This document shows, piece by piece, positions 1,862 through 62,445 of a DNA stretch of 64,000 bases; position 1 is the stretch's first letter, and each line of letters opens with the position of its first letter. This stretch comes from a virus (Duplodnaviria > Caudoviricetes), in IMG/VR virus record IMGVR_UViG_3300037424_001220, positions 3,109 through 67,108 of that record; one strand, written 5' to 3'. A program made the translations under genes and the position numbers. Below the pieces are notes generated by a model. The model was not told the DNA's origin, searched no databases, and was given only the letters and a program-made list of their open reading frames with translations.

Positions 1862-2185
1862 CTACGACCTCCTTTCTCTCTTGCGTCTCAGCACGCGCAT
1901 CTCGGGTTCCTGGTTCCGGAAGTGCTGACCCTTCTTGCCCGGGTGTGCGTTGATGGACTTGACGGCCTCACCGAGTTCGTGTAGAACGCGGTGCACAGCG
2001 GTCCAGCGGCCCGGTCTCTTCGGGAGACCGAACCGTGCCTCTAGGTGATCCGAGAAGGCACGAGCGTTGCCAAGGACAACGTCACCGTTCTCGGACTCCC
2101 AGATGAACTGACGCTTTCCGTTCTCGACACCGGCATACGAGGTGATGATGGCATCGAGGATCTCCGACCGGTCGAACCACCTCAC
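1862..2185 (-). CDS. hypothetical protein
   Basis: GTG start overlaps the TGA of the upstream gene (VRWFDRSEILDAII...); the ORF-track version is over-extended. Confidence 0.55.
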   Translation of the reverse strand: MRWFDRSEILDAIITSYAGVENGKRQFIWESENGDVVLGNARAFSDHLEARFGLPKRPGRWTAVHRVLHELGEAVKSINAHPGKKGQHFRNQEPEMRVLRRKRERRS

Positions 2186-2589
2186 GGGAGGTTGCTCTTG
2201 CCCGAACTGTAGCGACCGACTTGGGTCAGGCGCTCCGACACCTTGGCGGTGTCCTTCTCGCCCAAGATGAACTCCACGTCGATGACGTCGCCGCTGTTGA
2301 GCCCGTCCCAGTGAGCGGCGACGTAGCGATGAGCCTCGGCCACGGTGCGCGGGGGACGATTCCAGCTGAACGGGTCGTGGCGAATTTCCCCGCCTTCGAG
2401 TCGACCGAACAGCACCAGCGGATACGTGAAGCCGAAGCCCGCTCGACGGAGCAGGTACTCCTCGGCAAGTCCCTGGCCCGTCGCGAGCCATTCGGGCGCG
2501 TTCGGAGTCTCGCTTGGGGCCATGAGGATCCCGAAGCACGGGATGGCGGTGCTGCGGTCGCGTACCTCGAAGAGCTTGATCTGCATCAT
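2182..2589 (-). CDS. hypothetical protein
   Basis: 135 aa ORF with AGAAAGG upstream; codon pattern like neighbouring genes. Confidence 0.6.
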   Translation of the reverse strand: MMQIKLFEVRDRSTAIPCFGILMAPSETPNAPEWLATGQGLAEEYLLRRAGFGFTYPLVLFGRLEGGEIRHDPFSWNRPPRTVAEAHRYVAAHWDGLNSGDVIDVEFILGEKDTAKVSERLTQVGRYSSGKSNLP

Positions 2590-2729
2590 CGATCCTTTCT
2601 GATCTGGCGGATCTCGCGGATGAATCCGCCGAGCCCCGTTCCCAGGTCCTTGAAGAAGCGTCCACCGAACAGGAGCACCACGATCGCCGACACGACGACC
2701 AGTTCAGGTACCCCCAGACCGAATGGCAT

Positions 2730-24610: not shown

Positions 24611-26365
24611 ATGACTTGGATCGAGCGGTCGCGACGTACACCGTATGCGCATCAGATCGTAGGAGTAGACTGGCTCGTCGATCTCGTTCGTCCCGAGGAG
24701 GGTCGCGTACTGCCCGGGGGCCTCCTCGTGGCGGATGAGATGCGCCTTGGCAAGACGAAGCAGGTCATCGACGCGGCGCAGGTTCTCTTCGAGCGGGACG
24801 AGATCGACACAGTCATCGTGGTGGCACCGAACTCGGTTCGTGACGTGTGGTACGATCCGGAGATGGGCGAGATCGTCAAGCACTCATGGATGGGCGCTCA
24901 AGCCGAAGTGACCGAGTATCATCAGAAGTGCCGAACGTGGTTGTGGACGCGGAACGGCGGCCCCGAAAGTAAGCGGACACTAAAGTGGCTGATCACGAAC
25001 TTTGATTTCATCCGCTCCCGCGTCAAGCGTATAGGCCGTGGATGGACCGGCCCACGGCTGGCTCCGCTACTTGCCACAGCCAACAAGAAGACGCTCCTCG
25101 TGATCGACGAGTCCTCAGCCGTGTCCAACTACCGCTCCTTGCAGACACGATCCATCCTTGCTTTGCGTCGACGGTGCGGACGCGTGTGGTTGCTGAACGG
25201 GACGCCCATGTCGGAATCGCTCGAGGACTACTATTCCCAAGCGCTCATCCTCGATCCACGCATCCTCGCTTGCTCTGGCAAGACCGAGTTCATGGCCCGA
25301 TACGCCGTCTATGGTCAGGTGGTCGCTCAGGTACAGACCAAGTGGGGGAAGCAAGAGATCAGATCCGTGGCCGGATGGAAGCACGCGCAACGGCCCGGGT
25401 GCTGCGAGGGAGTGCCGCCGTCGCTGCAACAGCAGATGCATGCATGGGACGGCATCGGTGACCTTCAGCAACGTCTCGCTCCATACGTGCTCCGTCGCGA
25501 GCGGAAGGATTGCATGGATCTACCGCCGAAGCTCGATCCGGTGATCCTTCGCGTCACTCTCTCGGACGAGAGCTGGCGCGTGTACAAGGAGCTCCGTGAC
25601 GAGTTCGCCGCGTGGCTGGGATCCAACACCGTTGTCCCAGCGGCTCAGGCTGGAGTGCGGGTTATGCGGCTTGCCCAGGTTTGCGGCGGATACGTGGGAG
25701 GCCTAGAGAGCCTCCTGGCTGCCGAGCCCTGCCCAGCATGCTCGGGTGCGGGGCAGGACTCCTCTGGGACCGGATGCGCTCGGTGCGCTGGGCTGGGTAT
25801 AGTGGCACCCCAGGGTGCCAAAACGCCGTCAACGCTGGAACTGGGCCGGGAGAAGCTGGACGTACTGATGGAGCACCTGGAAGGTCGACTACGAGAGGAT
25901 CCAAACGTTCGCGTTCTCATCTGGTGTCGCTTCCGCGCCGAGATGGATCGTCTCACGAAGGAGCTCTGCTCCTCGCTGATTCCACGAACCGTCTCCATTC
26001 ACGGAGGCCAAACACGAGAGGAGCGACAGGAGGCTCTTCGCGTCATGCACCCGGATGCGCCAGCATTCAAGGGACCGGCGGCGCTCACCGGAACGTTGGG
26101 CACCGGTAGCATGGGACTGAACCTTGCCGGGGCACACGAGGTGATTTACTACTCGAACGGATGGAGCTTGAAGCAACGGCTCCAATCAGAGGATCGGCCT
26201 GTCGGCCCCGGACAGACACATCCGGTGAGTTACCACGATCTCGTGGCCTGTGGTCCTCGAGGACAACGCACCGTCGAGCATGAAGTGGTGGCGGCGTTGC
26301 GGGCAAAGGAAGACCTAGCACGCTGGTCACGCGAGAAGTGGATCAGGATCTTGAAGGAGGAGTGA
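24611..26365 (+). CDS. SNF2-family helicase
   Basis: YAHQ, ADEMRLGKT, VIDES, LNGTP, IHGG, GSMGLNL, QSEDR motifs. Confidence 0.92.
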   Translation: MTWIERSRRTPYAHQIVGVDWLVDLVRPEEGRVLPGGLLVADEMRLGKTKQVIDAAQVLFERDEIDTVIVVAPNSVRDVWYDPEMGEIVKHSWMGAQAEVTEYHQKCRTWLWTRNGGPESKRTLKWLITNFDFIRSRVKRIGRGWTGPRLAPLLATANKKTLLVIDESSAVSNYRSLQTRSILALRRRCGRVWLLNGTPMSESLEDYYSQALILDPRILACSGKTEFMARYAVYGQVVAQVQTKWGKQEIRSVAGWKHAQRPGCCEGVPPSLQQQMHAWDGIGDLQQRLAPYVLRRERKDCMDLPPKLDPVILRVTLSDESWRVYKELRDEFAAWLGSNTVVPAAQAGVRVMRLAQVCGGYVGGLESLLAAEPCPACSGAGQDSSGTGCARCAGLGIVAPQGAKTPSTLELGREKLDVLMEHLEGRLREDPNVRVLIWCRFRAEMDRLTKELCSSLIPRTVSIHGGQTREERQEALRVMHPDAPAFKGPAALTGTLGTGSMGLNLAGAHEVIYYSNGWSLKQRLQSEDRPVGPGQTHPVSYHDLVACGPRGQRTVEHEVVAALRAKEDLARWSREKWIRILKEE

Positions 26366-26915
26366 TTTTGGGCACTCTATGGTTCGTTGCCGTACTCGTT
26401 TCGTTGCCGTTGGCTCGTTGGTTCTTCGGCTGGCTCAACAAGCCCAAGGACCTGTACATCGATCTCCGACGCATCAACGACGAGGACCGTGCCGCCCACC
26501 GCAAGGAGCTGTACGGTGACATCGAGTACCGCAACCGTGTCAAGAAGCGCATGCTCGAAGGTCTAACGATGGACCAGATGGCCCCACTCTATCTCGTGCC
26601 TAAGAAGGCTGAGATTGAGACCAAGTCCAAAAGGAAGACTCGTCGTCGCAACGTGCTCCCGATGACCAAGACGGGTGCGCTGCTGCTCGTCATCGCCATC
26701 ATAGGGTGCAATCAGCTACCGCCTCCGTCCATGCGACTCGTCGTCGAAAGAGTACTCGGGGCGTCCCGCATAATACTCATCGCCGAGGACGGAGCGCAGT
26801 GTCGCAGCGACGACTATCTCAATGCCGAGATGATCTGGAGAGCCGAGATCGGCAAGAAGTTCGAGTGCCACTGGCACCCGAAGTCAGCGCCTCTGCTCCC
26901 GGAGAGGCTCCGACC

Positions 26916-27185
26916 ATGAGCTGGAAGGCACCGCGTACCTGGGTTGCCGGTGGCGAAACGGTGACGAGAGCCAAGATCAACAAGAACATCGAAGATAACC
27001 TTCCTCCAATTGAGCATTGCACCCACTCCGACGGATACTACTACGGTCCTCCACCCGAGCCTCCAGCACCCGAGGTTCCCATCACGGCGGCTCTTCTCGG
27101 AGCGGCGGCGATGGCCGTCGATCTCAAGAAGCCCGTCCAACGACGATCGCTGCTCTTCCCGTGGCTGAGGAGGAACAAGGAATGA
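26916..27185 (+). CDS. small protein sharing the N-terminal module of the tail proteins at 62445 and 62726
   Basis: MSWKAPRTWVAGGETVTRAKINKNIEDNL versus MAWTAPRTWVDGEIVTAAMMNAHVRDNM; ATGA coupling. Confidence 0.6.
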   Translation: MSWKAPRTWVAGGETVTRAKINKNIEDNLPPIEHCTHSDGYYYGPPPEPPAPEVPITAALLGAAAMAVDLKKPVQRRSLLFPWLRRNKE

Positions 27186-27421
27186 TCTACGTTTTGGCGG
27201 GCAACGTCTCAGAGGCTTACCGCATCATGCAGGTCGATGCCAACATGCAACCACATGAATTCGTTGTCCTCCGCGATCCCCAGGAGCTTCGAGGTCTCAG
27301 AAACGCCACGGTCTACATCGTTGGTAGCGGCGAGGGCCGACGGGATCTAGAGGAGTGGAAATACCTCTTCCGACAACGGAGGTTCACCATTTACTACGGC
27401 GTTCCCGAGAGGAGAGCATGA
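27182..27421 (+). CDS. hypothetical protein
   Basis: MIYVLAGNVSEA; GAGG site; coupled start/stop. Confidence 0.55.
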   Translation: MIYVLAGNVSEAYRIMQVDANMQPHEFVVLRDPQELRGLRNATVYIVGSGEGRRDLEEWKYLFRQRRFTIYYGVPERRA

Positions 27422-27918
27422 TGGAGCGACGCAGCTTCCTGAAGCTTCTCGGGTTCGTCTCGGGCGGTGCCCTGCTCTCGGTGCCCGCCGTTGCCGAGGT
27501 CGAGCGTCTGGTCCTATCACCGGCCCTCGGGGCGACCTCACTAATGCCCCACGCGGACTTCTCCTTTCTGGTATCGGGAGTCGACATCGGCCCGTGGATC
27601 AACGACATCGTCATGCCCCGCGTCGATTACGAGCACATTGAAGTGACGTCCTTCGATGACGAGGAACGCCGCTTCATCCCGTCGCTGCGGCGCATGTCGG
27701 AACTCGACCTCGTATTCAAGGACCTCCCCCAGAACCGCTTCGAGCACCTTAGCGCTCTCCTCAACAAGCTCGACACGGTCGACTACAAACTGGTCCACCA
27801 CCTCTCGGGCTGGCGCTGGAGTGGACGCGCCTACATCAAGAGCCTCCTGTACAGCACCGACCAGCAAGTCTCGTGTACCTTCCAACCGACGGGACCGGCG
27901 GAGCTGATGACGATATGA
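27418..27918 (+). CDS. tail tube protein paralog with an N-terminal twin-arginine (Tat) signal
   Basis: MMERRSFLKLLGFVSGGALLSVPAVA, then a domain alignable by eye to the major tail protein at 55909. Confidence 0.65.
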   Translation: MMERRSFLKLLGFVSGGALLSVPAVAEVERLVLSPALGATSLMPHADFSFLVSGVDIGPWINDIVMPRVDYEHIEVTSFDDEERRFIPSLRRMSELDLVFKDLPQNRFEHLSALLNKLDTVDYKLVHHLSGWRWSGRAYIKSLLYSTDQQVSCTFQPTGPAELMTI

Positions 27919-28030
27919 GCTTTCTGATCGCGCTGCTTCTACTCGTGGCTTGCTGGTTCAAGCCCCTCTTCGTTATCGCCCTGTGCGCCGCGTGCTCGAC
28001 GATCCTCTTTTGGGAGAAGGTACAGAAGCG

Positions 28031-28696
28031 GTGACACCCGGGGACGCGGTGATCTACGACGCCGGGGCCGGCTTTGGTGCGGTGCTGTCAGCCCGGGTAG
28101 ACCATACGGCCCCGATGATTCTCGTACGGTGGCAGAACGGCCTGACGACCTTCCTCCATGCGGGGACGGTGATGCCGGCCGAATCGTTGTTCGTCGAAGA
28201 AAGGAGACGGATCTTGGGTAAGTGGACGGAGATGATGAAGGAGATGCACCCCGAGCAGAAGCCGCTAGACGGCGGGGAGAAGTACCAGGAGAGAGTGAAC
28301 GCGGCCAAGACTGAGTTCTCCGGCCTGGGACCGACGCCCCTCGCGGAGACGTACCTGAAGCTCCGGAACGAGCGGGACGAGATGGAGAAGGTCCGATCGA
28401 AGCTCGACTGTCGCATCGTGGCACTCGAGCAACTGATTACCGACTCCTTCGAGGCTAACGGTCTCGAGATGGTGCGCCTCCAGGGTGGAGGGTCCGTTGC
28501 CACGGAGGTCGAGCCGTATGCCGCCATCGAGGACCCCGTTGCGGTGAGACAGTGGGTCGTAGAGCGTGGACTCGAGTCGAGGCTGACGCTGCCCTGGCAG
28601 ACCCTGAATTCTGAGACGAAGGACATGCTGCTCTCCGAGGGCAAGGTGCCCCCCGGGGTGAAGCTCTTCGTGCGAACGAAGGTGGTGAAGCGGTAA
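28031..28696 (+). CDS. conserved phage protein with coiled coil, upstream of the SSB-like gene
   Basis: Coiled coil plus VPPGVKLF C-terminal motif; start uncertain (27950, 28031 or later). Confidence 0.6.
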   Translation: MTPGDAVIYDAGAGFGAVLSARVDHTAPMILVRWQNGLTTFLHAGTVMPAESLFVEERRRILGKWTEMMKEMHPEQKPLDGGEKYQERVNAAKTEFSGLGPTPLAETYLKLRNERDEMEKVRSKLDCRIVALEQLITDSFEANGLEMVRLQGGGSVATEVEPYAAIEDPVAVRQWVVERGLESRLTLPWQTLNSETKDMLLSEGKVPPGVKLFVRTKVVKR

Positions 28697-28861
28697 GCAC
28701 AACATGAAGTGCGAGTGCGGAGAGCAGCTTCGGGTGGTGGACACCCGGGCTGAGAACAACACGGTTCGTCGAGATCGGCGCTGCTTCACCTGCGGGCTGC
28801 GCTACATAACTGAAGAGACACGCGGGAATCCCGTTCAGAAGACCCCGAGGAGGGTTAGGAC

Positions 28862-29662
28862 ATGGCGACGAAGAAGGAAGTGAAGAAGGCCGTAGTCGAG
28901 GAGACCGCGGTTCAGACAGTCCCGGGTTCGGCGCTGCCGGCCTGGATCGAGCGTGGCGTGAAGGAGACCGGTGCGGAGCACATCCAGCCGGAGGACGTGC
29001 GCATGCCGCGTCTTCTCATCGCCCAGGGGCTCAGCCCCCAGGTGTTGAAGAACGATCCGGCGTTCATCCCGGGCCTCTCCATCGGGGACGCGTTCAACGA
29101 CCTAACGGGTGAGATCTACGGTGACGGCCCCATGACCGTAATCGTCGTGCGAGCGGATCCTCCGCGTTGGGTCGAGTACGATCCGGAGGATCGGAAGAAC
29201 ATCCTCGACCGCAACGTGCCCCACGGTGATCCGCGGACGCAGTGGACGGTCAACGAGGAGACCGGCGAGCGCGAGAAGCCCCGCGCGATGCAGTTCTACG
29301 ACTACGTGGTGATGATCGAGCACGGACCGGACGATGCCCAGGCACCGAACACGCTCGAGCCGGTGGCGTTCTCGTACAAGTCGACCGGCATCAATCACGC
29401 CAAGAGGCTCAACGCCTATCTGCGCCTCCGCCCGGGTGTTCCCATCTACGCGTTCCGCTACGAGCTGAAGCCGGTGCAGATGAAGAACGACCAGGGGACG
29501 TGGTTCCTGTTCGCGGTGCACCCGGCGGGCATCGTCACCGAGGACCAATACAAGGCGGCGAAGGAGATGTTCCAGCAGATCAAGCTGAAGGACATCGCCT
29601 TCGATCGCGGCGTCGTCGACGCGGCGGACCCGGACGCGCCGGACGCCGAGAAGGAGATGTAA
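28862..29662 (+). CDS. putative single-stranded DNA-binding protein
   Basis: DVRMPRLLIAQGLSPQV; aromatic-rich core; acidic C-terminal tail; strong codon bias. Confidence 0.55.
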   Translation: MATKKEVKKAVVEETAVQTVPGSALPAWIERGVKETGAEHIQPEDVRMPRLLIAQGLSPQVLKNDPAFIPGLSIGDAFNDLTGEIYGDGPMTVIVVRADPPRWVEYDPEDRKNILDRNVPHGDPRTQWTVNEETGEREKPRAMQFYDYVVMIEHGPDDAQAPNTLEPVAFSYKSTGINHAKRLNAYLRLRPGVPIYAFRYELKPVQMKNDQGTWFLFAVHPAGIVTEDQYKAAKEMFQQIKLKDIAFDRGVVDAADPDAPDAEKEM

Positions 29663-55908: not shown

Positions 55909-56337
55909 ATGCCCAACGCAATCTCGGCGCAGGGAACGCTGGTCGCTCGTGCGCCCATCGCTACACCGACGGTGTTCGCCACGATCGGCGAGCTTCGCAA
56001 CATCACGCCTCCGCCTCTCATGCGGAACGCGATCGAGACCACGAGCCACAACGAGGAGGAGGAATCGTTCGTCGTTGGCATCCGCCGCAAGGGTGAGATG
56101 ACGATGGAGATCGGATACGTGCCCGATCTCGCGACGCACGATCACCTCACCGGGCTCACCAAGGCATGGCTCGACGGCAGCCGCGACATCTACAAGATCA
56201 CGTACCCGGATGGCACTCAGTGGTTGTTCTCGGGCTACGTGACCAACATCGGTCCGAGCGCCCCCGTGGACGACGGGCTCACGGCCGAGGTCACCATCCG
56301 TCCGACCGGCGTCATGGAGTTCGTCACCGCTCCGTAG
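55909..56337 (+). CDS. major tail (tube) protein
   Basis: IETTSH, GIRRKGEMTMEIGY, YKITYPDGTQWLFSGYV, AEVTIRPTG; AAGGAG site. Confidence 0.88.
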   Translation: MPNAISAQGTLVARAPIATPTVFATIGELRNITPPPLMRNAIETTSHNEEEESFVVGIRRKGEMTMEIGYVPDLATHDHLTGLTKAWLDGSRDIYKITYPDGTQWLFSGYVTNIGPSAPVDDGLTAEVTIRPTGVMEFVTAP

Positions 56338-60322: not shown

Positions 60323-62445
60323 TGAGTCTGTATCCTGAACCCGTGTTCCCAGAGGCTGTTCGAGTCGACGCATTCATGCGTCGGTTCGTTCTGTGGACGG
60401 AAGAGAGCAACGCGATCGTGTACGATCCCTCTACCAGTGTCCCAGGAATCACCCCTGGTGACATCGTAGCCACGGGCACAGCGGGAACGGCCCGATCCGT
60501 TCAGCAGTCGGACAGTGAGTTCGACCGTTGCTACGTTGAATTTGTTGTGACGCAACTCGGTGTTGGCTTCGGTAAGGGTATCGGGTTGAGTCACGTCTAC
60601 ACGGCGGGTTCGTTTACGGCAATCGACTTCGCTCTCAACATCACGGCTGGGGCTGCCTGGAACATCTACGAGAACAACGTTCTCAAGCTCGCCGGTTCGG
60701 CCGACGTGGTTCTCGGTGATGTGTTTCGCATTGAGGCGGCAAATGGTGCGGTGAAGTTCTACCGCAACGGTACCCTACTCTACACGTCTACTACGACTCC
60801 GATCTACCCTCTCTTCGCGTTTGCTGACTGCTTCGCGGTCGACGGCCGATTCGATGACGTGGTGTGGGCACAGTGGATTGAGTTGCCAGACCTGCAACTT
60901 CGCGGCGGAATCACGATCAAGCGTGGGATGCAGGGCACCACGATGCGAGACCGTGTGGCCACCACGGGCACGCTAGCGTTCCAGTTGGACAACAGTGCTG
61001 ACAACTCTGCCGGACTTCTTGGGCTCTACTCCCCGAACAACGCGAATGCTCTTGAGGACTGGCATCTTGGTACACCGGTCCGTTGCATCATCACATACCT
61101 AGCGATCGAGGAACCGGTCTTCGTTGGACAAGTGGAAAATATCATCCCTGAGTCCGGACGGTTTCGAGAACGTAAGGTTGAGGTGTCGTGTGTGGACTGG
61201 ATGAATGAGGCCTCTCTGTCGAAGGTTCGTGGTCTTACGGTTCTAACGAACGTTCGTTCGGATGAGGTTTTCTCGGCCATCCTGTCTGCGGTTGAACGAC
61301 AACCCGCCGCGATCGTTGCTCAGATTGGAGGTGACTCGTATGCCTACGCTCTGGACAACGCTCTGGCAGAGACCTCAGTCATGTCGGAGTTTCAGGCACT
61401 TGCTCAGTCGGAGTTGGGATACGTGTTCGTTCGCAGGGATGGCACCTTGGTCTTTGAGAGCCGGCATCAGAGACCGAATACGTTGGCACTCGCTGAGAGC
61501 TTCGATGACTCTGACATTGATGATGTGAATCCTGGTCGTGGTCGATCGTCAATCATCAACAGAGCTGAGGTTCAGGCACATCCTCGCCGTGTAGACACGG
61601 CTGCTACATCGGTTCTGTTTTCTTTGGCCTCTATTCCCAGAATTGAGAGGCAAACGTCTCAGGTGTTCTCTGCCCCGTACCGCGACCCTGATGCTAGAGC
61701 TACTCGTGTTGGTGGTGTGGAGATGGTTCAACCGGTCCTTACAACGGACTACCTTTTCAACACTTCAGAGGATGGCACCGGCATCGACATCTCCTCGCAG
61801 CTCTCCGTTTCAGCTATCTATTACGCCAATGCTGCGGAGGTGACGGTACTGAACAACGGTCCGATGGACGGGTATCTGCGTAAACTTCAATGCCGTGGGA
61901 AGGGAATCTACTCGTACGAGACGATCAAGGTTCGCGCTGACTCGCAGCCGTCGAAGGATCGATACGGCGAGAGCAGCCTCAACTTCGACATGCCCTATCA
62001 GGCTGATGTAACCATCGCCAAGGACGCGGCTGAGTTCATGGTCAATCAGGCCAAGGACGTTCTTACACCCGTGGACGCTCTTACGTTCATCGCGAATCGT
62101 GAGGATCGTCTCATGCGCGCGGCGCTTCGGTTGGACATCAGTCACAAGGTACATGTTGAAGAGACTGTCATCGGAGGTGAACCGTTTCTACCTGTCGGGG
62201 AGCTGAACCAGTCCGTCTCGGCTCTGGACTTCTTCATCAACTCGGTCTCGATCTTCATTGGTGAGCGTGGCATCATCCGTTGCACCTGGGGCTTAGCTCC
62301 AGGCGATCCCTTCAACTACTGGATTCTTGAGCGTGATGGATTCACTGAACTGGATCAGACAACCCGATTGGCCTACGGAGCTTTTGTTGCAGGGTGGGTC
62401 CTGGACAGTTCGGTCCTTGGAACCGGAACGAGGGTGAATCAATAA
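60319..62445 (+). CDS. distal tail/baseplate hub protein with an N-terminal SPRY/ConA-like domain
   Basis: Position after the tape measure; GDVFRIE...VKFYRNGTLLYTS; hub-like C-terminal part. Confidence 0.65.
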   Translation: MMSLYPEPVFPEAVRVDAFMRRFVLWTEESNAIVYDPSTSVPGITPGDIVATGTAGTARSVQQSDSEFDRCYVEFVVTQLGVGFGKGIGLSHVYTAGSFTAIDFALNITAGAAWNIYENNVLKLAGSADVVLGDVFRIEAANGAVKFYRNGTLLYTSTTTPIYPLFAFADCFAVDGRFDDVVWAQWIELPDLQLRGGITIKRGMQGTTMRDRVATTGTLAFQLDNSADNSAGLLGLYSPNNANALEDWHLGTPVRCIITYLAIEEPVFVGQVENIIPESGRFRERKVEVSCVDWMNEASLSKVRGLTVLTNVRSDEVFSAILSAVERQPAAIVAQIGGDSYAYALDNALAETSVMSEFQALAQSELGYVFVRRDGTLVFESRHQRPNTLALAESFDDSDIDDVNPGRGRSSIINRAEVQAHPRRVDTAATSVLFSLASIPRIERQTSQVFSAPYRDPDARATRVGGVEMVQPVLTTDYLFNTSEDGTGIDISSQLSVSAIYYANAAEVTVLNNGPMDGYLRKLQCRGKGIYSYETIKVRADSQPSKDRYGESSLNFDMPYQADVTIAKDAAEFMVNQAKDVLTPVDALTFIANREDRLMRAALRLDISHKVHVEETVIGGEPFLPVGELNQSVSALDFFINSVSIFIGERGIIRCTWGLAPGDPFNYWILERDGFTELDQTTRLAYGAFVAGWVLDSSVLGTGTRVNQ

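What the first reader, a model, noticed from the sequence alone, without database searches (positions are those of the whole stretch)
27418..27918. Tail tube paralog with a twin-arginine export signal, encoded in the replication module
Seen: N-terminus ERRSFLK + hydrophobic stretch + AVA cleavage-like site. The remainder aligns with the major tail protein: INDIVMPRVDYEHIEVTSFDDEERRFIPSLRRMSEL versus LRNITPPPLMRNAIETTSHNEEEESFVVGIRRKGEM, and TFQPTGPAEL versus TIRPTGVMEF. Established: Tat exports folded proteins. Inference: a periplasmic or secreted tube-fold protein made before late genes, perhaps a superinfection-exclusion factor, a decoy for tail-sensing defences, or an Hcp-like secreted ring.
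Basis: partly seen in the sequence, partly recalled or inferred. Interest (0 to 1): 0.7.

Follow-up and report, generated by a model that had tools for sequence, protein, structure and literature searches.

The report
Export-tagged copy of phage tail tube
An uncultured sediment phage carries, among its replication genes, a fast-evolving optional copy of its own tail-tube protein behind a twin-arginine (Tat) export leader, and also encodes a small TatA-like export-channel protein; no paper I searched describes this design, and its function, possibly blocking rival phages at the cell envelope, is untested.

Summary
Window 27418-27918 (+) is a real 166-aa gene. Residues 1-26 form a textbook Tat-type leader: RRSFLK, 17 uncharged residues, then AVA. 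Residues about 44-166 are a diverged copy of the phage's own lambda-type tail tube protein at 55909-56337 (BLASTP E 4e-8; profile-profile 96%; predicted fold matches siphophage tubes at Z 9-10).

Only about 11 relatives exist among 1.8 billion representative proteins. All start at the RR motif, and the leader is their best conserved part (59% versus 31% identity). The gene is optional. It evolves much faster than the true tube gene (about 40% versus about 78% identity between two phages). It sits in non-structural gene arrays in all three informative contexts.

New here:
- The phage also encodes a 47-aa TatA-like protein (2586-2729, minus strand). The one other phage with the collinear paralog has one too.
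- Two further phages of the same tail group carry a circularly permuted Tat-tagged tube copy.

Export, timing and function are untested. My best guess is an envelope-located tail mimic that excludes superinfecting phages. This scan has noted the same design before on other DNA. I found no paper describing it.

The parts
27418..27918 (+). Tat-leader tail-tube paralog, 166 aa (P0001). The start is ATG 27418 or ATG 27421; homologs begin MERRSFLK, which favours 27421.
   Evidence: ORF and translation. GC3 0.79. Eight relatives among 1.84 billion representative proteins, all aligned from residue 1-2. Similarity to them starts at M-E-R-R.
27418..27495 (+). Tat-type leader, residues 1-26: n-region MME, RRSFLK motif, 17 uncharged residues, AVA.
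   Evidence: R4, R5, F7 and L8 are invariant in 11 family members. The h-region is 12-17 uncharged residues with mean Kyte-Doolittle 1.1-1.9. The leader shows 59% mean pairwise identity against 31% for the tube domain. TIGR01409 scores 11.3 bits, below its 16.7 cut-off; 5 of 9 members match it, best E 0.0013. PF10518 matches 5 of 9 members, best E 0.021.
27496..27546 (+). Variable linker, residues 27-43. It begins with the semi-conserved E-[VI]-E-R.
   Evidence: 22% mean pairwise identity and gappy. pLDDT is below 50 at residues 38-43.
27547..27915 (+). Tail-tube-fold domain, residues about 44-166.
   Evidence: hhalign of A1 against TTP alignment A3: probability 96%, E 4e-9, 106 columns. Foldseek PDB top hits are lambda gpV, YDC107 and monocin tubes at E about 1e-5. 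VIA Z is 9-10 over about 125 residues. The ESM Atlas model aligns residues 41/43-166 to Phage_TTP_12 clusters at TM 0.64-0.69.
55909..56337 (+). The phage's genuine major tail (tube) protein, 142 aa (P0002); the parent type of the paralog.
   Evidence: Pfam Phage_TTP_12 7.7e-12 and Phage_TTP_11 1.7e-9. phrog_158 1.6e-16. More than 246 close homologs in metagenomes.
2586..2729 (-). 47-aa TatA-like protein: a transmembrane helix containing P-E-L, an LLFGG hinge, and an amphipathic helix LGxGLGGFIREIR.
   Evidence: Pfam TatA_B_E 22.1 bits against a cut-off of 21. The 12 best NCBIfam hits are all TatA/TatE models, E 3e-6 to 6e-3, all below their curated cut-offs. phrog_29532 E 4e-4. AGGAG lies upstream and an ATGA overlap joins it to the next gene. 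A counterpart exists in G001.
26338..26919 (+). First gene of the coupled array. It has an N-terminal hydrophobic helix and an internal lipoprotein-like stretch (MTKTGALLLVIAIIGC).
   Evidence: Translation. No Pfam or PHROG hit. The reading as a membrane protein or lipoprotein comes from the sequence only.
26916..27185 (+). 89-aa ORF. Its first 29 residues copy the N-termini of two tail genes (at 62445 and 62726). A Pro-rich linker, a short hydrophobic patch and a basic tail follow.
   Evidence: BLASTP within the window: E 4e-6 and 3e-5. No family hit. ATGA overlaps on both sides.
27182..27421 (+). 79-aa protein of unknown family, translationally coupled to the Tat-tube gene.
   Evidence: It is not conserved next to homologs elsewhere.
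27915..28034 (+). 39-aa very hydrophobic ORF. It overlaps the Tat-tube stop (ATGA) and ends in a GTGA overlap with the next gene's likely start at 28031.
   Evidence: Translation, sequence, no PHROG hit. It could be a non-coding frame.

Best explanation
Shown: the gene is a diverged, optional paralog of this phage group's lambda-type tail tube protein. It has gained an N-terminal twin-arginine leader and sits in a translationally coupled array of small genes in the replication module. Several of those genes look membrane-directed. The phage also encodes a minimal TatA-like protein but no TatC.

Inferred mechanism: the protein is made with the early or middle genes and folds in the cytoplasm. 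Its RRxFLK leader takes it to the host TatBC receptor. It then crosses the cytoplasmic membrane, and the phage TatA-like protein adds translocation capacity. It ends up either free in the periplasm or wall zone, or tethered by an uncleaved leader.

There it acts as a mimic of the tail tube. True tube subunits polymerise around the tape measure protein and dock on the tail tip. An envelope-located copy would therefore meet those parts of a second, related phage as it tries to deliver its genome, and block entry. That would be superinfection exclusion, or equally protection of progeny from wasting themselves on infected cells and debris.

The confidence of 0.4 is for the whole chain, function included. 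That it is a real Tat-leader tube-fold protein I put at about 0.85. That it is exported I put at about 0.7.
For: - Homology to the tube protein: BLASTP E 4e-8. The family profile hits the true tube genes of many relatives at E 1e-5 to 5e-8. hhalign gives 96%.
- Fold.
- Leader: invariant RR-x-F-L in 11 of 11 members, at residues 3-5. The h-regions are 12-17 uncharged residues, which I judge too short for a normal membrane helix. The leader is the best conserved part. Tat-signal HMMs match 5 of 9 members. The start codon sits at the conserved position.
- Tat link: a TatA-like ORF in this phage and in G001, the only other full genome with the collinear paralog. Nineteen of the other 20 related records surveyed have no match. 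The twentieth, G020, has only a 13.2-bit hit inside a 323-aa ORF, which I discount.
- Accessory and fast-evolving: it is absent from G002, which is 95% complete and has a 78% identical tube gene. It is about 40% identical between G000 and G001, whose tube genes are about 77% identical.
- The early modules of G000 and G001 are otherwise almost unrelated, while the tail module is shared. This ties the gene to the tail type rather than to replication.
- Non-structural context in three lineages: helicase and PrimPol here; QueE and GTP cyclohydrolase in G001; cold-shock domain and RNase_T exonuclease in L028.
- Recurrence: two more phages of the same tube group carry a circularly permuted Tat-tagged tube copy.
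- Precedent for envelope-level blocks of genome entry: the periplasmic HxsA effector (PMC13128918).
Against: - No export, timing or exclusion data exist, and the host is unknown. No RNA run holds the sequence, so expression could not be examined.
- P0001 scores 11.3 bits on TIGR01409, below the 16.7 cut-off.
- The AxA cleavage site is not conserved: several members have H or R at position -1. Whether the protein is soluble or anchored is therefore open.
- G019 and G020 carry a Tat-tagged tube copy without any TatA-like gene. TatA is therefore not a required partner, and the co-occurrence rests on two related phages.
- The phage shows no integrase and has its own replication genes, so it is probably virulent. 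Exclusion genes are best known from prophages, though by my own knowledge T4 and T5 also have them.
- Fast evolution could also mean relaxed constraint.
Confidence: 0.4

Rival explanations
1. It is an exported Hcp-like ring or short tube with a structural or carrier role in the envelope. Examples would be part of a phage-built conduit, a scaffold for other exported phage proteins, or a lysis or egress accessory working with the TatA-like protein and the small hydrophobic neighbours. In this reading it does not act on other phages.
For: The complete tube domain is retained, with acidic character like true tubes: pI 4.5-5.4 against 4.5-5.6. Hcp structures also match at Z 7.2-7.5. By established knowledge, Tat can carry folded and oligomeric cargo. 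The gene is coupled to small membrane-looking ORFs.
Against: The neighbours are not conserved next to homologs. The gene is optional within the phage group, which does not fit a core structural or lysis role. The tube domain is poorly conserved, at 31% mean identity. Oligomerisation could not be tested.
Confidence: 0.15
2. It is a decoy or sponge for a host defence that recognises tail tube protein, or that guards the envelope against tail-like weapons such as tailocins.
For: Tube-derived sequence made ahead of the structural genes (position). Fast evolution and patchy presence are typical of counter-defence genes. That a tail tube protein can trigger a defence (DSR2) is my own recollection and was not checked here.
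Against: The tube-sensing defence that I recall is cytoplasmic, so an export leader would remove the decoy from the place where it is needed. Defences that act during genome entry strike before any phage gene is expressed. No defence partner is identifiable because the host is unknown.
Confidence: 0.12
3. It is not exported. The RR leader is a cytoplasmic or membrane-targeting peptide, and the protein regulates or caps the phage's own tail assembly, for example by delaying tube polymerisation. Alternatively, it is a decaying duplicate.
For: P0001 is below the Tat-signal HMM cut-off. The cleavage site is not conserved. The gene is a homolog of the assembly subunit.
Against: RR-x-F-L is invariant, and the leader is the best conserved part over 11 members that are otherwise about 30% identical. 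That pattern indicates selection on the leader itself. The frames are intact in all members. TatA-like genes co-occur with it. A second, permuted family keeps the same kind of leader.
Confidence: 0.1

Closest known systems
Lambda gpV-type siphophage tail tube proteins (Pfam PF16461 Phage_TTP_12 / PF16460), including this phage's own P0002
   Same: They are homologous over about 106 columns (hhalign 96%). The predicted fold is the same (Z 9-10). Both are acidic. Core motifs are kept: I-E-x-T, the RR after the hairpin, W...Y, and P-T-G.
   Different: It has a 43-residue Tat leader and linker that tube proteins lack. It is encoded among replication genes, not between the tail completion and chaperone genes. 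It is optional. It evolves about three times faster. No Pfam tube model reaches significance on any member.
Hcp/TssD of type VI secretion
   Same: Hcp is a tube-fold protein that leaves the cytoplasm. The structural match is Z 7.2-7.5.
   Different: Hcp has no signal peptide and is fired through the T6SS, not exported by Tat. There are no T6SS genes here. The match is weaker than to phage tubes. No Pfam Hcp model was listed for any member.
Envelope-located superinfection exclusion proteins (TP-J34 Ltp, T5 Llp, HK97 gp15, T4 Imm/Sp, P22 SieA)
   Same: These are small phage-encoded proteins sent to the envelope. They are optional and fast-evolving, lie outside the structural module, and act on incoming phage at the genome delivery step. 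Titles and abstracts of PMC3952083, PMC9586334 and PMC10883804 were seen; further details come from my own knowledge.
   Different: None of them is known to be a copy of a virion protein, and none is known to use Tat. No sequence relation was found. An exclusion phenotype is not shown here.
HXS defence effector HxsA (PMC13128918)
   Same: It is a periplasmic protein that stops phage DNA entry. This shows that the periplasm is a workable place to block genome delivery.
   Different: It is a bacterial system, not a phage one. [quoted passage not shown]
Tat substrates with strongly conserved leaders (e.g. periplasmic hydrogenase small subunits)
   Same: They share the RR-x-F-L-K motif followed by a Gly/Thr-rich h-region. 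The family profile's best PDB sequence hit is the leader of the Desulfovibrio Fe-only hydrogenase small subunit, but at E 1, which is not significant.
   Different: There is no cofactor-binding domain, and no conserved chaperone gene lies next to it.

Membership tests
Tat (twin-arginine) signal peptides (TIGR01409 / PF10518) | Consensus S/T-R-R-x-F-L-K near the N-terminus | tested here: met
   P0001 has E-R-R-S-F-L-K at residues 3-9. RR-x-F-L is invariant in 11 of 11 members, with RR starting at residue 3-5. The motif occurs once in the 94,094 six-frame ORF residues of the window.
Tat (twin-arginine) signal peptides (TIGR01409 / PF10518) | Moderately hydrophobic, uncharged h-region of about 12-20 residues after the motif | tested here: met
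   17 uncharged residues in P0001 and 12-17 across the family, with mean Kyte-Doolittle 1.1-1.9.
Tat (twin-arginine) signal peptides (TIGR01409 / PF10518) | Score at or above the curated HMM cut-off | tested here: not met
   TIGR01409 scores 11.3 bits against a cut-off of 16.7 for P0001. Five of 9 members match at E up to 10, best 0.0013. PF10518 matches 5 of 9, best 0.021. I therefore call it Tat-type by motif, not a curated-model member.
Tat (twin-arginine) signal peptides (TIGR01409 / PF10518) | Signal peptidase site (small residues at -3 and -1) | tested here: inconclusive
   A-V-A before E27 in P0001. Aligned members have H, R or no equivalent at position -1. SignalP and TatP were not available.
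Tat (twin-arginine) signal peptides (TIGR01409 / PF10518) | Export depends on TatBC and on the twin arginines | not testable with these tools
   Needs fractionation in wild-type and tat-mutant cells, and RR-to-KK variants.
Lambda-type tail tube proteins (PF16461/PF16460) | Significant match to the family model | tested here: not met
   No Pfam tube model is listed for any of 9 members even at E up to 10. phrog_158 matches only at E 0.0099. Homology shows up only through the phage's own tube protein and profile-profile comparison.
Lambda-type tail tube proteins (PF16461/PF16460) | Tube fold (beta-sandwich with long hairpin and one helix) | tested here: met
   AF2 model with pLDDT 76. All top Foldseek and VIA hits are tube proteins, at Z 9-10. 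The independent ESM model gives TM 0.64-0.69.
Lambda-type tail tube proteins (PF16461/PF16460) | Encoded in the tail module and assembled in the cytoplasm (no signal peptide) | tested here: not met
   It lies 28 kb upstream of the tail genes, between the helicase and the primase, and carries an export-type leader.
Hcp/TssD | Hcp family match and T6SS gene neighbourhood | tested here: not met
   No Pfam Hcp model is listed. The neighbours are phage replication genes. Structural similarity is only Z 7.2-7.5, below that to phage tubes.
Superinfection exclusion proteins | Expression blocks infection by a second phage at or before genome entry | not testable with these tools
   The phage and host are uncultured. 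Only circumstantial features are seen: envelope targeting, optional presence, fast evolution.
TatA/TatE (for the 47-aa ORF 2586-2729) | Match to TatA_B_E above Pfam's gathering score, and the TM helix - FG hinge - amphipathic helix layout | tested here: met
   PF02416 scores 22.1 bits against a cut-off of 21. The layout can be read directly from the translation. Caveat: all NCBIfam TatA/E hits (E 3e-6 to 6e-3) are below their curated cut-offs. The G001 counterpart scores 20 bits, just under Pfam's cut-off.

The most novel reading that the evidence does not exclude
Phages of several lineages run a previously undescribed envelope programme. They graft Tat leaders onto copies of their own virion proteins: here a collinear tube copy, and in sister phages a circularly permuted one. 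Some also bring their own TatA to raise export capacity. The exported mimics bind the tape measure or tail tip of later-arriving related phages. This would be a new, mimicry-based class of superinfection exclusion specific to tail type, and the first viral use of the Tat pathway with a virus-encoded translocase subunit.
Probability: 0.3. Interest if true: 0.85.

Novelty: new variant of a known kind. Interest (0 to 1): 0.72.

Why it matters
Tail tube proteins are known only as cytoplasmically assembled virion parts or, as Hcp, as T6SS projectiles. The Tat pathway is not known as a route for phage proteins. A 2026 review of Tat mentions phages only in passing.

Three things would follow from a phage that exports a copy of its own tube protein and also carries a TatA-like gene:
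- Virion folds would be seen to be reused as envelope-located effectors.
- It would give a testable model of how exclusion can be made specific to a tail type, through mimicry of an assembly interface.
- It would add a virus-encoded subunit to the biology of Tat.

The finding is also practical for annotation. These genes would otherwise be labelled 'hypothetical', or mislabelled as a second major tail protein.

Tried and rejected
Ring formation and binding to tube or tape measure are therefore untested.
- Sequencing runs: one DNA holder (sediment metagenome) and no RNA holder listed, so expression could not be examined.
- tblastn of P0001 against 50,697 GenBank phage records found nothing at E up to 1. 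The TatA-like ORF also found nothing, but it is a short query with low power.
- Pattern scans found no relative of the family in GTDB genomes or JGI metagenome contigs. The full alignment A1 was too variable to scan with.
- The word-indexed protein search found only the query itself, or six proteins when given the profile, two of them new (P0131, P0132).
- The conserved-partner idea (a chaperone or membrane partner next to the gene) was rejected. Upstream and downstream genes differ in every homolog contig.
- An internal start at M43, which would give a leaderless tube domain, was rejected. That Met is not conserved, and the leader is under the strongest conservation.
- An upstream GTG start at 27355 was rejected, because similarity to homologs begins at M-E-R-R.
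- The promoter and terminator scan of 24-31 kb found nothing above chance.
- Host identification failed. There are no tRNAs, the nearest cultured terminases are only 22-27% identical, and no integrase was found.
- Tai/Tab tail-assembly-interference systems were considered and set aside. In the passages I searched, Tai is not described as a tube homolog.
- Literature searches for Tat plus tail tube, Tat plus exclusion, a phage TatA and an exported tube paralog returned nothing relevant.

Full report
**What is there**

Window 27418-27918 (+) is an intact 166-aa ORF (P0001). Its third-position GC is 0.79, typical of coding sequence in this 60% GC genome. The start region reads GGAGAGC-ATG-ATG. 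The first ATG overlaps the stop of the upstream gene, and the stop of P0001 overlaps the ATG of a 39-aa hydrophobic ORF. Six consecutive ORFs from 26338 to 28696 are joined by 4-nt start/stop overlaps, so the gene looks like part of one translationally coupled array. No promoter-like or terminator-like site above chance lies nearby.

The window is 64 kb of a 67,108-bp IMG/VR viral record estimated 93% complete. One DNA run from a sediment metagenome holds it.

**Tube paralogy**

- The phage's major tail protein (55909-56337, P0002) is a lambda-type tube protein: Phage_TTP_12 7.7e-12 and phrog_158 1.6e-16.
- P0001 residues 61-165 align to P0002 residues 29-140 at 27% identity, E 4e-8. A search of the whole genome record with P0001 recovers the tube gene at E 1.2e-5.
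- A profile of the P0001 family hits the true tube genes of relatives at E about 1e-5 to 5e-8.
- Profile-profile comparison with 18 tube proteins of this phage group gives 96% probability, E 4e-9, over 106 collinear columns.
- An AlphaFold2 model (pLDDT 76, pTM 0.68) matches only tube-fold proteins. Foldseek finds lambda gpV, YDC107 and monocin MttP at E about 1e-5. Viral models match at E 1e-7. VIA gives Z 9-10 over about 125 residues with T1, phiXacJX1 and lambda tubes.
- The independent ESM Atlas model aligns residues 41/43-166 to Phage_TTP_12 clusters at TM 0.64-0.69.
- No Pfam tube model reaches significance on any member. This is a divergent offshoot, most simply a duplicate of this phage group's own tube gene.

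**The leader**

Residues 1-26 read MME-RRSFLK, then 17 uncharged residues, ending A-V-A. The exhaustive representative search found eight relatives among 1.84 billion proteins. Two more came from later searches. All 11 align from their first residues.

- R4, R5, F7 and L8 are invariant.
- RR sits at residue 3-5 in every member, followed by 12-17 uncharged, moderately hydrophobic residues.
- Similarity among homologs begins exactly at M-E-R-R, and residues upstream in the same frame are unrelated. This fixes the start and rules out a start downstream of the motif.
- The leader is the best conserved part: 59% mean pairwise identity, against 22% for the linker and 31% for the tube domain.
- Tat-signal HMMs match five of nine members (TIGR01409 best E 0.0013; PF10518 best 0.021). 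P0001 itself scores 11.3 bits, below the 16.7 cut-off.
- The AxA site of P0001 is not conserved, so cleavage is uncertain. A tethered form is possible.

**A phage TatA-like gene**

A 47-aa ORF at window 2586-2729 (minus strand) matches Pfam TatA_B_E at 22.1 bits, against a cut-off of 21. All 12 of its best NCBIfam hits are TatA/TatE models (E 3e-6 to 6e-3), though all fall below their curated cut-offs.

Its sequence shows the TatA layout: a transmembrane helix containing P-E-L, an LLFGG hinge, and an amphipathic LGxGLGGFIREIR helix. It has an AGGAG site upstream and is ATGA-coupled to the next gene. No TatC is encoded, so host TatBC would be needed.

**Distribution**

- Another 62-kb phage (G001) has the collinear paralog, about 40% identical. 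Its tube gene is about 77-80% identical.
- Apart from the structural module, G000 and G001 share almost nothing at E 1e-5. G001 also has a TatA-like ORF, at 20 bits and a pairwise E of 3e-5.
- G002 is 95% complete and has a 78% identical tube gene. It has neither the paralog nor a TatA-like ORF.
- I surveyed 21 IMG/VR records of 30 kb or more that carry this tube family. Only G001 has the collinear paralog, and only G001 has a credible TatA-like ORF.
- G019 and G020 carry a different Tat-leader protein (P0133). It begins M-N-R-R-T-F-L-Q, and its residues 41-97 match tube residues 86-140 while residues 103-184 match tube residues 2-73. It is therefore a circularly permuted tube copy. Its leader and linker align to those of P0001 at E 0.003. 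No other record has it.
- In total, 4 of 22 records (4 of the 11 that are at least 85% complete) carry a Tat-tagged tube copy, in two architectures.
- The TatA link is suggestive but weak. Both TatA-like genes occur with the collinear form (1 in 55 by chance among the 11 near-complete records). The two phages are related, however, and the permuted-copy phages lack TatA.

**Context**

In all three informative contexts the gene lies among non-structural genes:
- SNF2 helicase and PrimPol here.
- QueE, GTP cyclohydrolase and an NrdR-like zinc ribbon in G001.
- Cold-shock domain and RNase_T exonuclease genes in L028.

The immediate neighbours are not conserved, so there is no fixed partner gene. 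In this phage the neighbours include an ORF whose first 29 residues copy the N-termini of two tail genes (E 4e-6 and 3e-5), a protein with a hydrophobic N-terminus and a lipoprotein-like internal stretch, and a 39-aa hydrophobic ORF.

**Interpretation**

Shown:
- It is a tube-fold paralog with a conserved RR leader.
- It is optional and fast-evolving.
- It sits in early-type modules.
- TatA-like genes occur in two phages that carry it.

Inferred:
- It is exported by Tat.
- It is made before the structural genes.
- It works in the envelope.

I favour a tail-mimic role against later-arriving related phages. The reasons are its tie to the tail module rather than the replication module, its patchy and fast-changing nature, and the fact that tube subunits naturally bind the tape measure and tail tip, the parts that enter the envelope. 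The overall confidence is 0.4. The rivals are an Hcp-like structural ring, a decoy for defences, and a non-exported assembly regulator, each with lower odds.

**Novelty and earlier notes**

Seven literature searches found no description of a Tat-tagged virion protein copy or of a phage TatA. This scan has noted the same design before on other DNA: tube, sheath and capsid copies with Tat leaders, one case with a phage TatA, and one circularly permuted tube family. Those are unverified AI notes. I checked only the analogous points on this phage group.

Noticed in passing
L124:991-1560 (-) = G019:C1:36490-37059; also G020:C1:43563-44093: Two phages with the same tube family carry a 186-190-aa protein with a Tat-type leader (MNRRTFLQ...), followed by a circularly permuted tube domain in which the C-terminal half comes first. 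It lies next to an HNH-like gene. No TatA-like gene is found in these records.
   Followed up: partly
window 26916-27185 (+): An 89-aa ORF whose first 29 residues (MSWKAPRTW...) copy the N-termini of the tail genes at 62445 and 62726 (E 4e-6 and 3e-5). A Pro-rich linker, a short hydrophobic patch and a basic tail follow. It is a second tail-derived module, two genes upstream of the Tat-tube gene, and is not found next to homologs elsewhere.
   Followed up: partly
window 26338-26919 (+): A 193-aa ORF with a hydrophobic N-terminus and, after a very basic stretch, an internal Met followed by a lipoprotein-like signal (MTKTGALLLVIAIIGC). It could be one two-helix membrane protein or two nested products. 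It has no family hit.
   Followed up: no
That system has a rSAM-matured His-x-Ser repeat effector that blocks phage DNA entry from the periplasm (PMC13128918). Here the pair sits at the end of a phage tail module and is shared with G002 (61-69% identity).
   Followed up: no
window 2182-2589 (-) and L005:754-849: The gene that is ATGA-coupled downstream of the TatA-like ORF (it begins MMQIKLFEVRD) has a homolog directly downstream of the Tat-tube gene in another metagenome contig (79% over 24 aa, E 3e-13). G002 has this gene too (57%), without TatA or the Tat-tube gene. It has no family hit.
   Followed up: partly
window 10000-37000 versus G001 and G002: The three near-complete phages share the head-tail module (35-86% identity), but their replication and DNA-modification modules are almost entirely unrelated at E 1e-5. 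G001 has QueE/FolE-type 7-deazaguanine genes where this phage has a thymidine-modification-like cluster.
   Followed up: partly
window 28704-28883 (+): A 59-aa NrdR-like zinc-ribbon protein (PF22811, 27.0 bits, just under its 27.2 cut-off). It is one of the very few early genes shared with G001 (47% over 43 aa), and in both phages it lies shortly downstream of the Tat-tube gene.
   Followed up: no
window 27950-29662 (+): Pam3 gp33-like (DUF7307; labelled 'minor head protein' in PHROG 13900) and Pam3 gp34-like proteins sit in the replication module. The first probably starts at GTG 28031, not at the TTG 27950 of the longest ORF.
   Followed up: no
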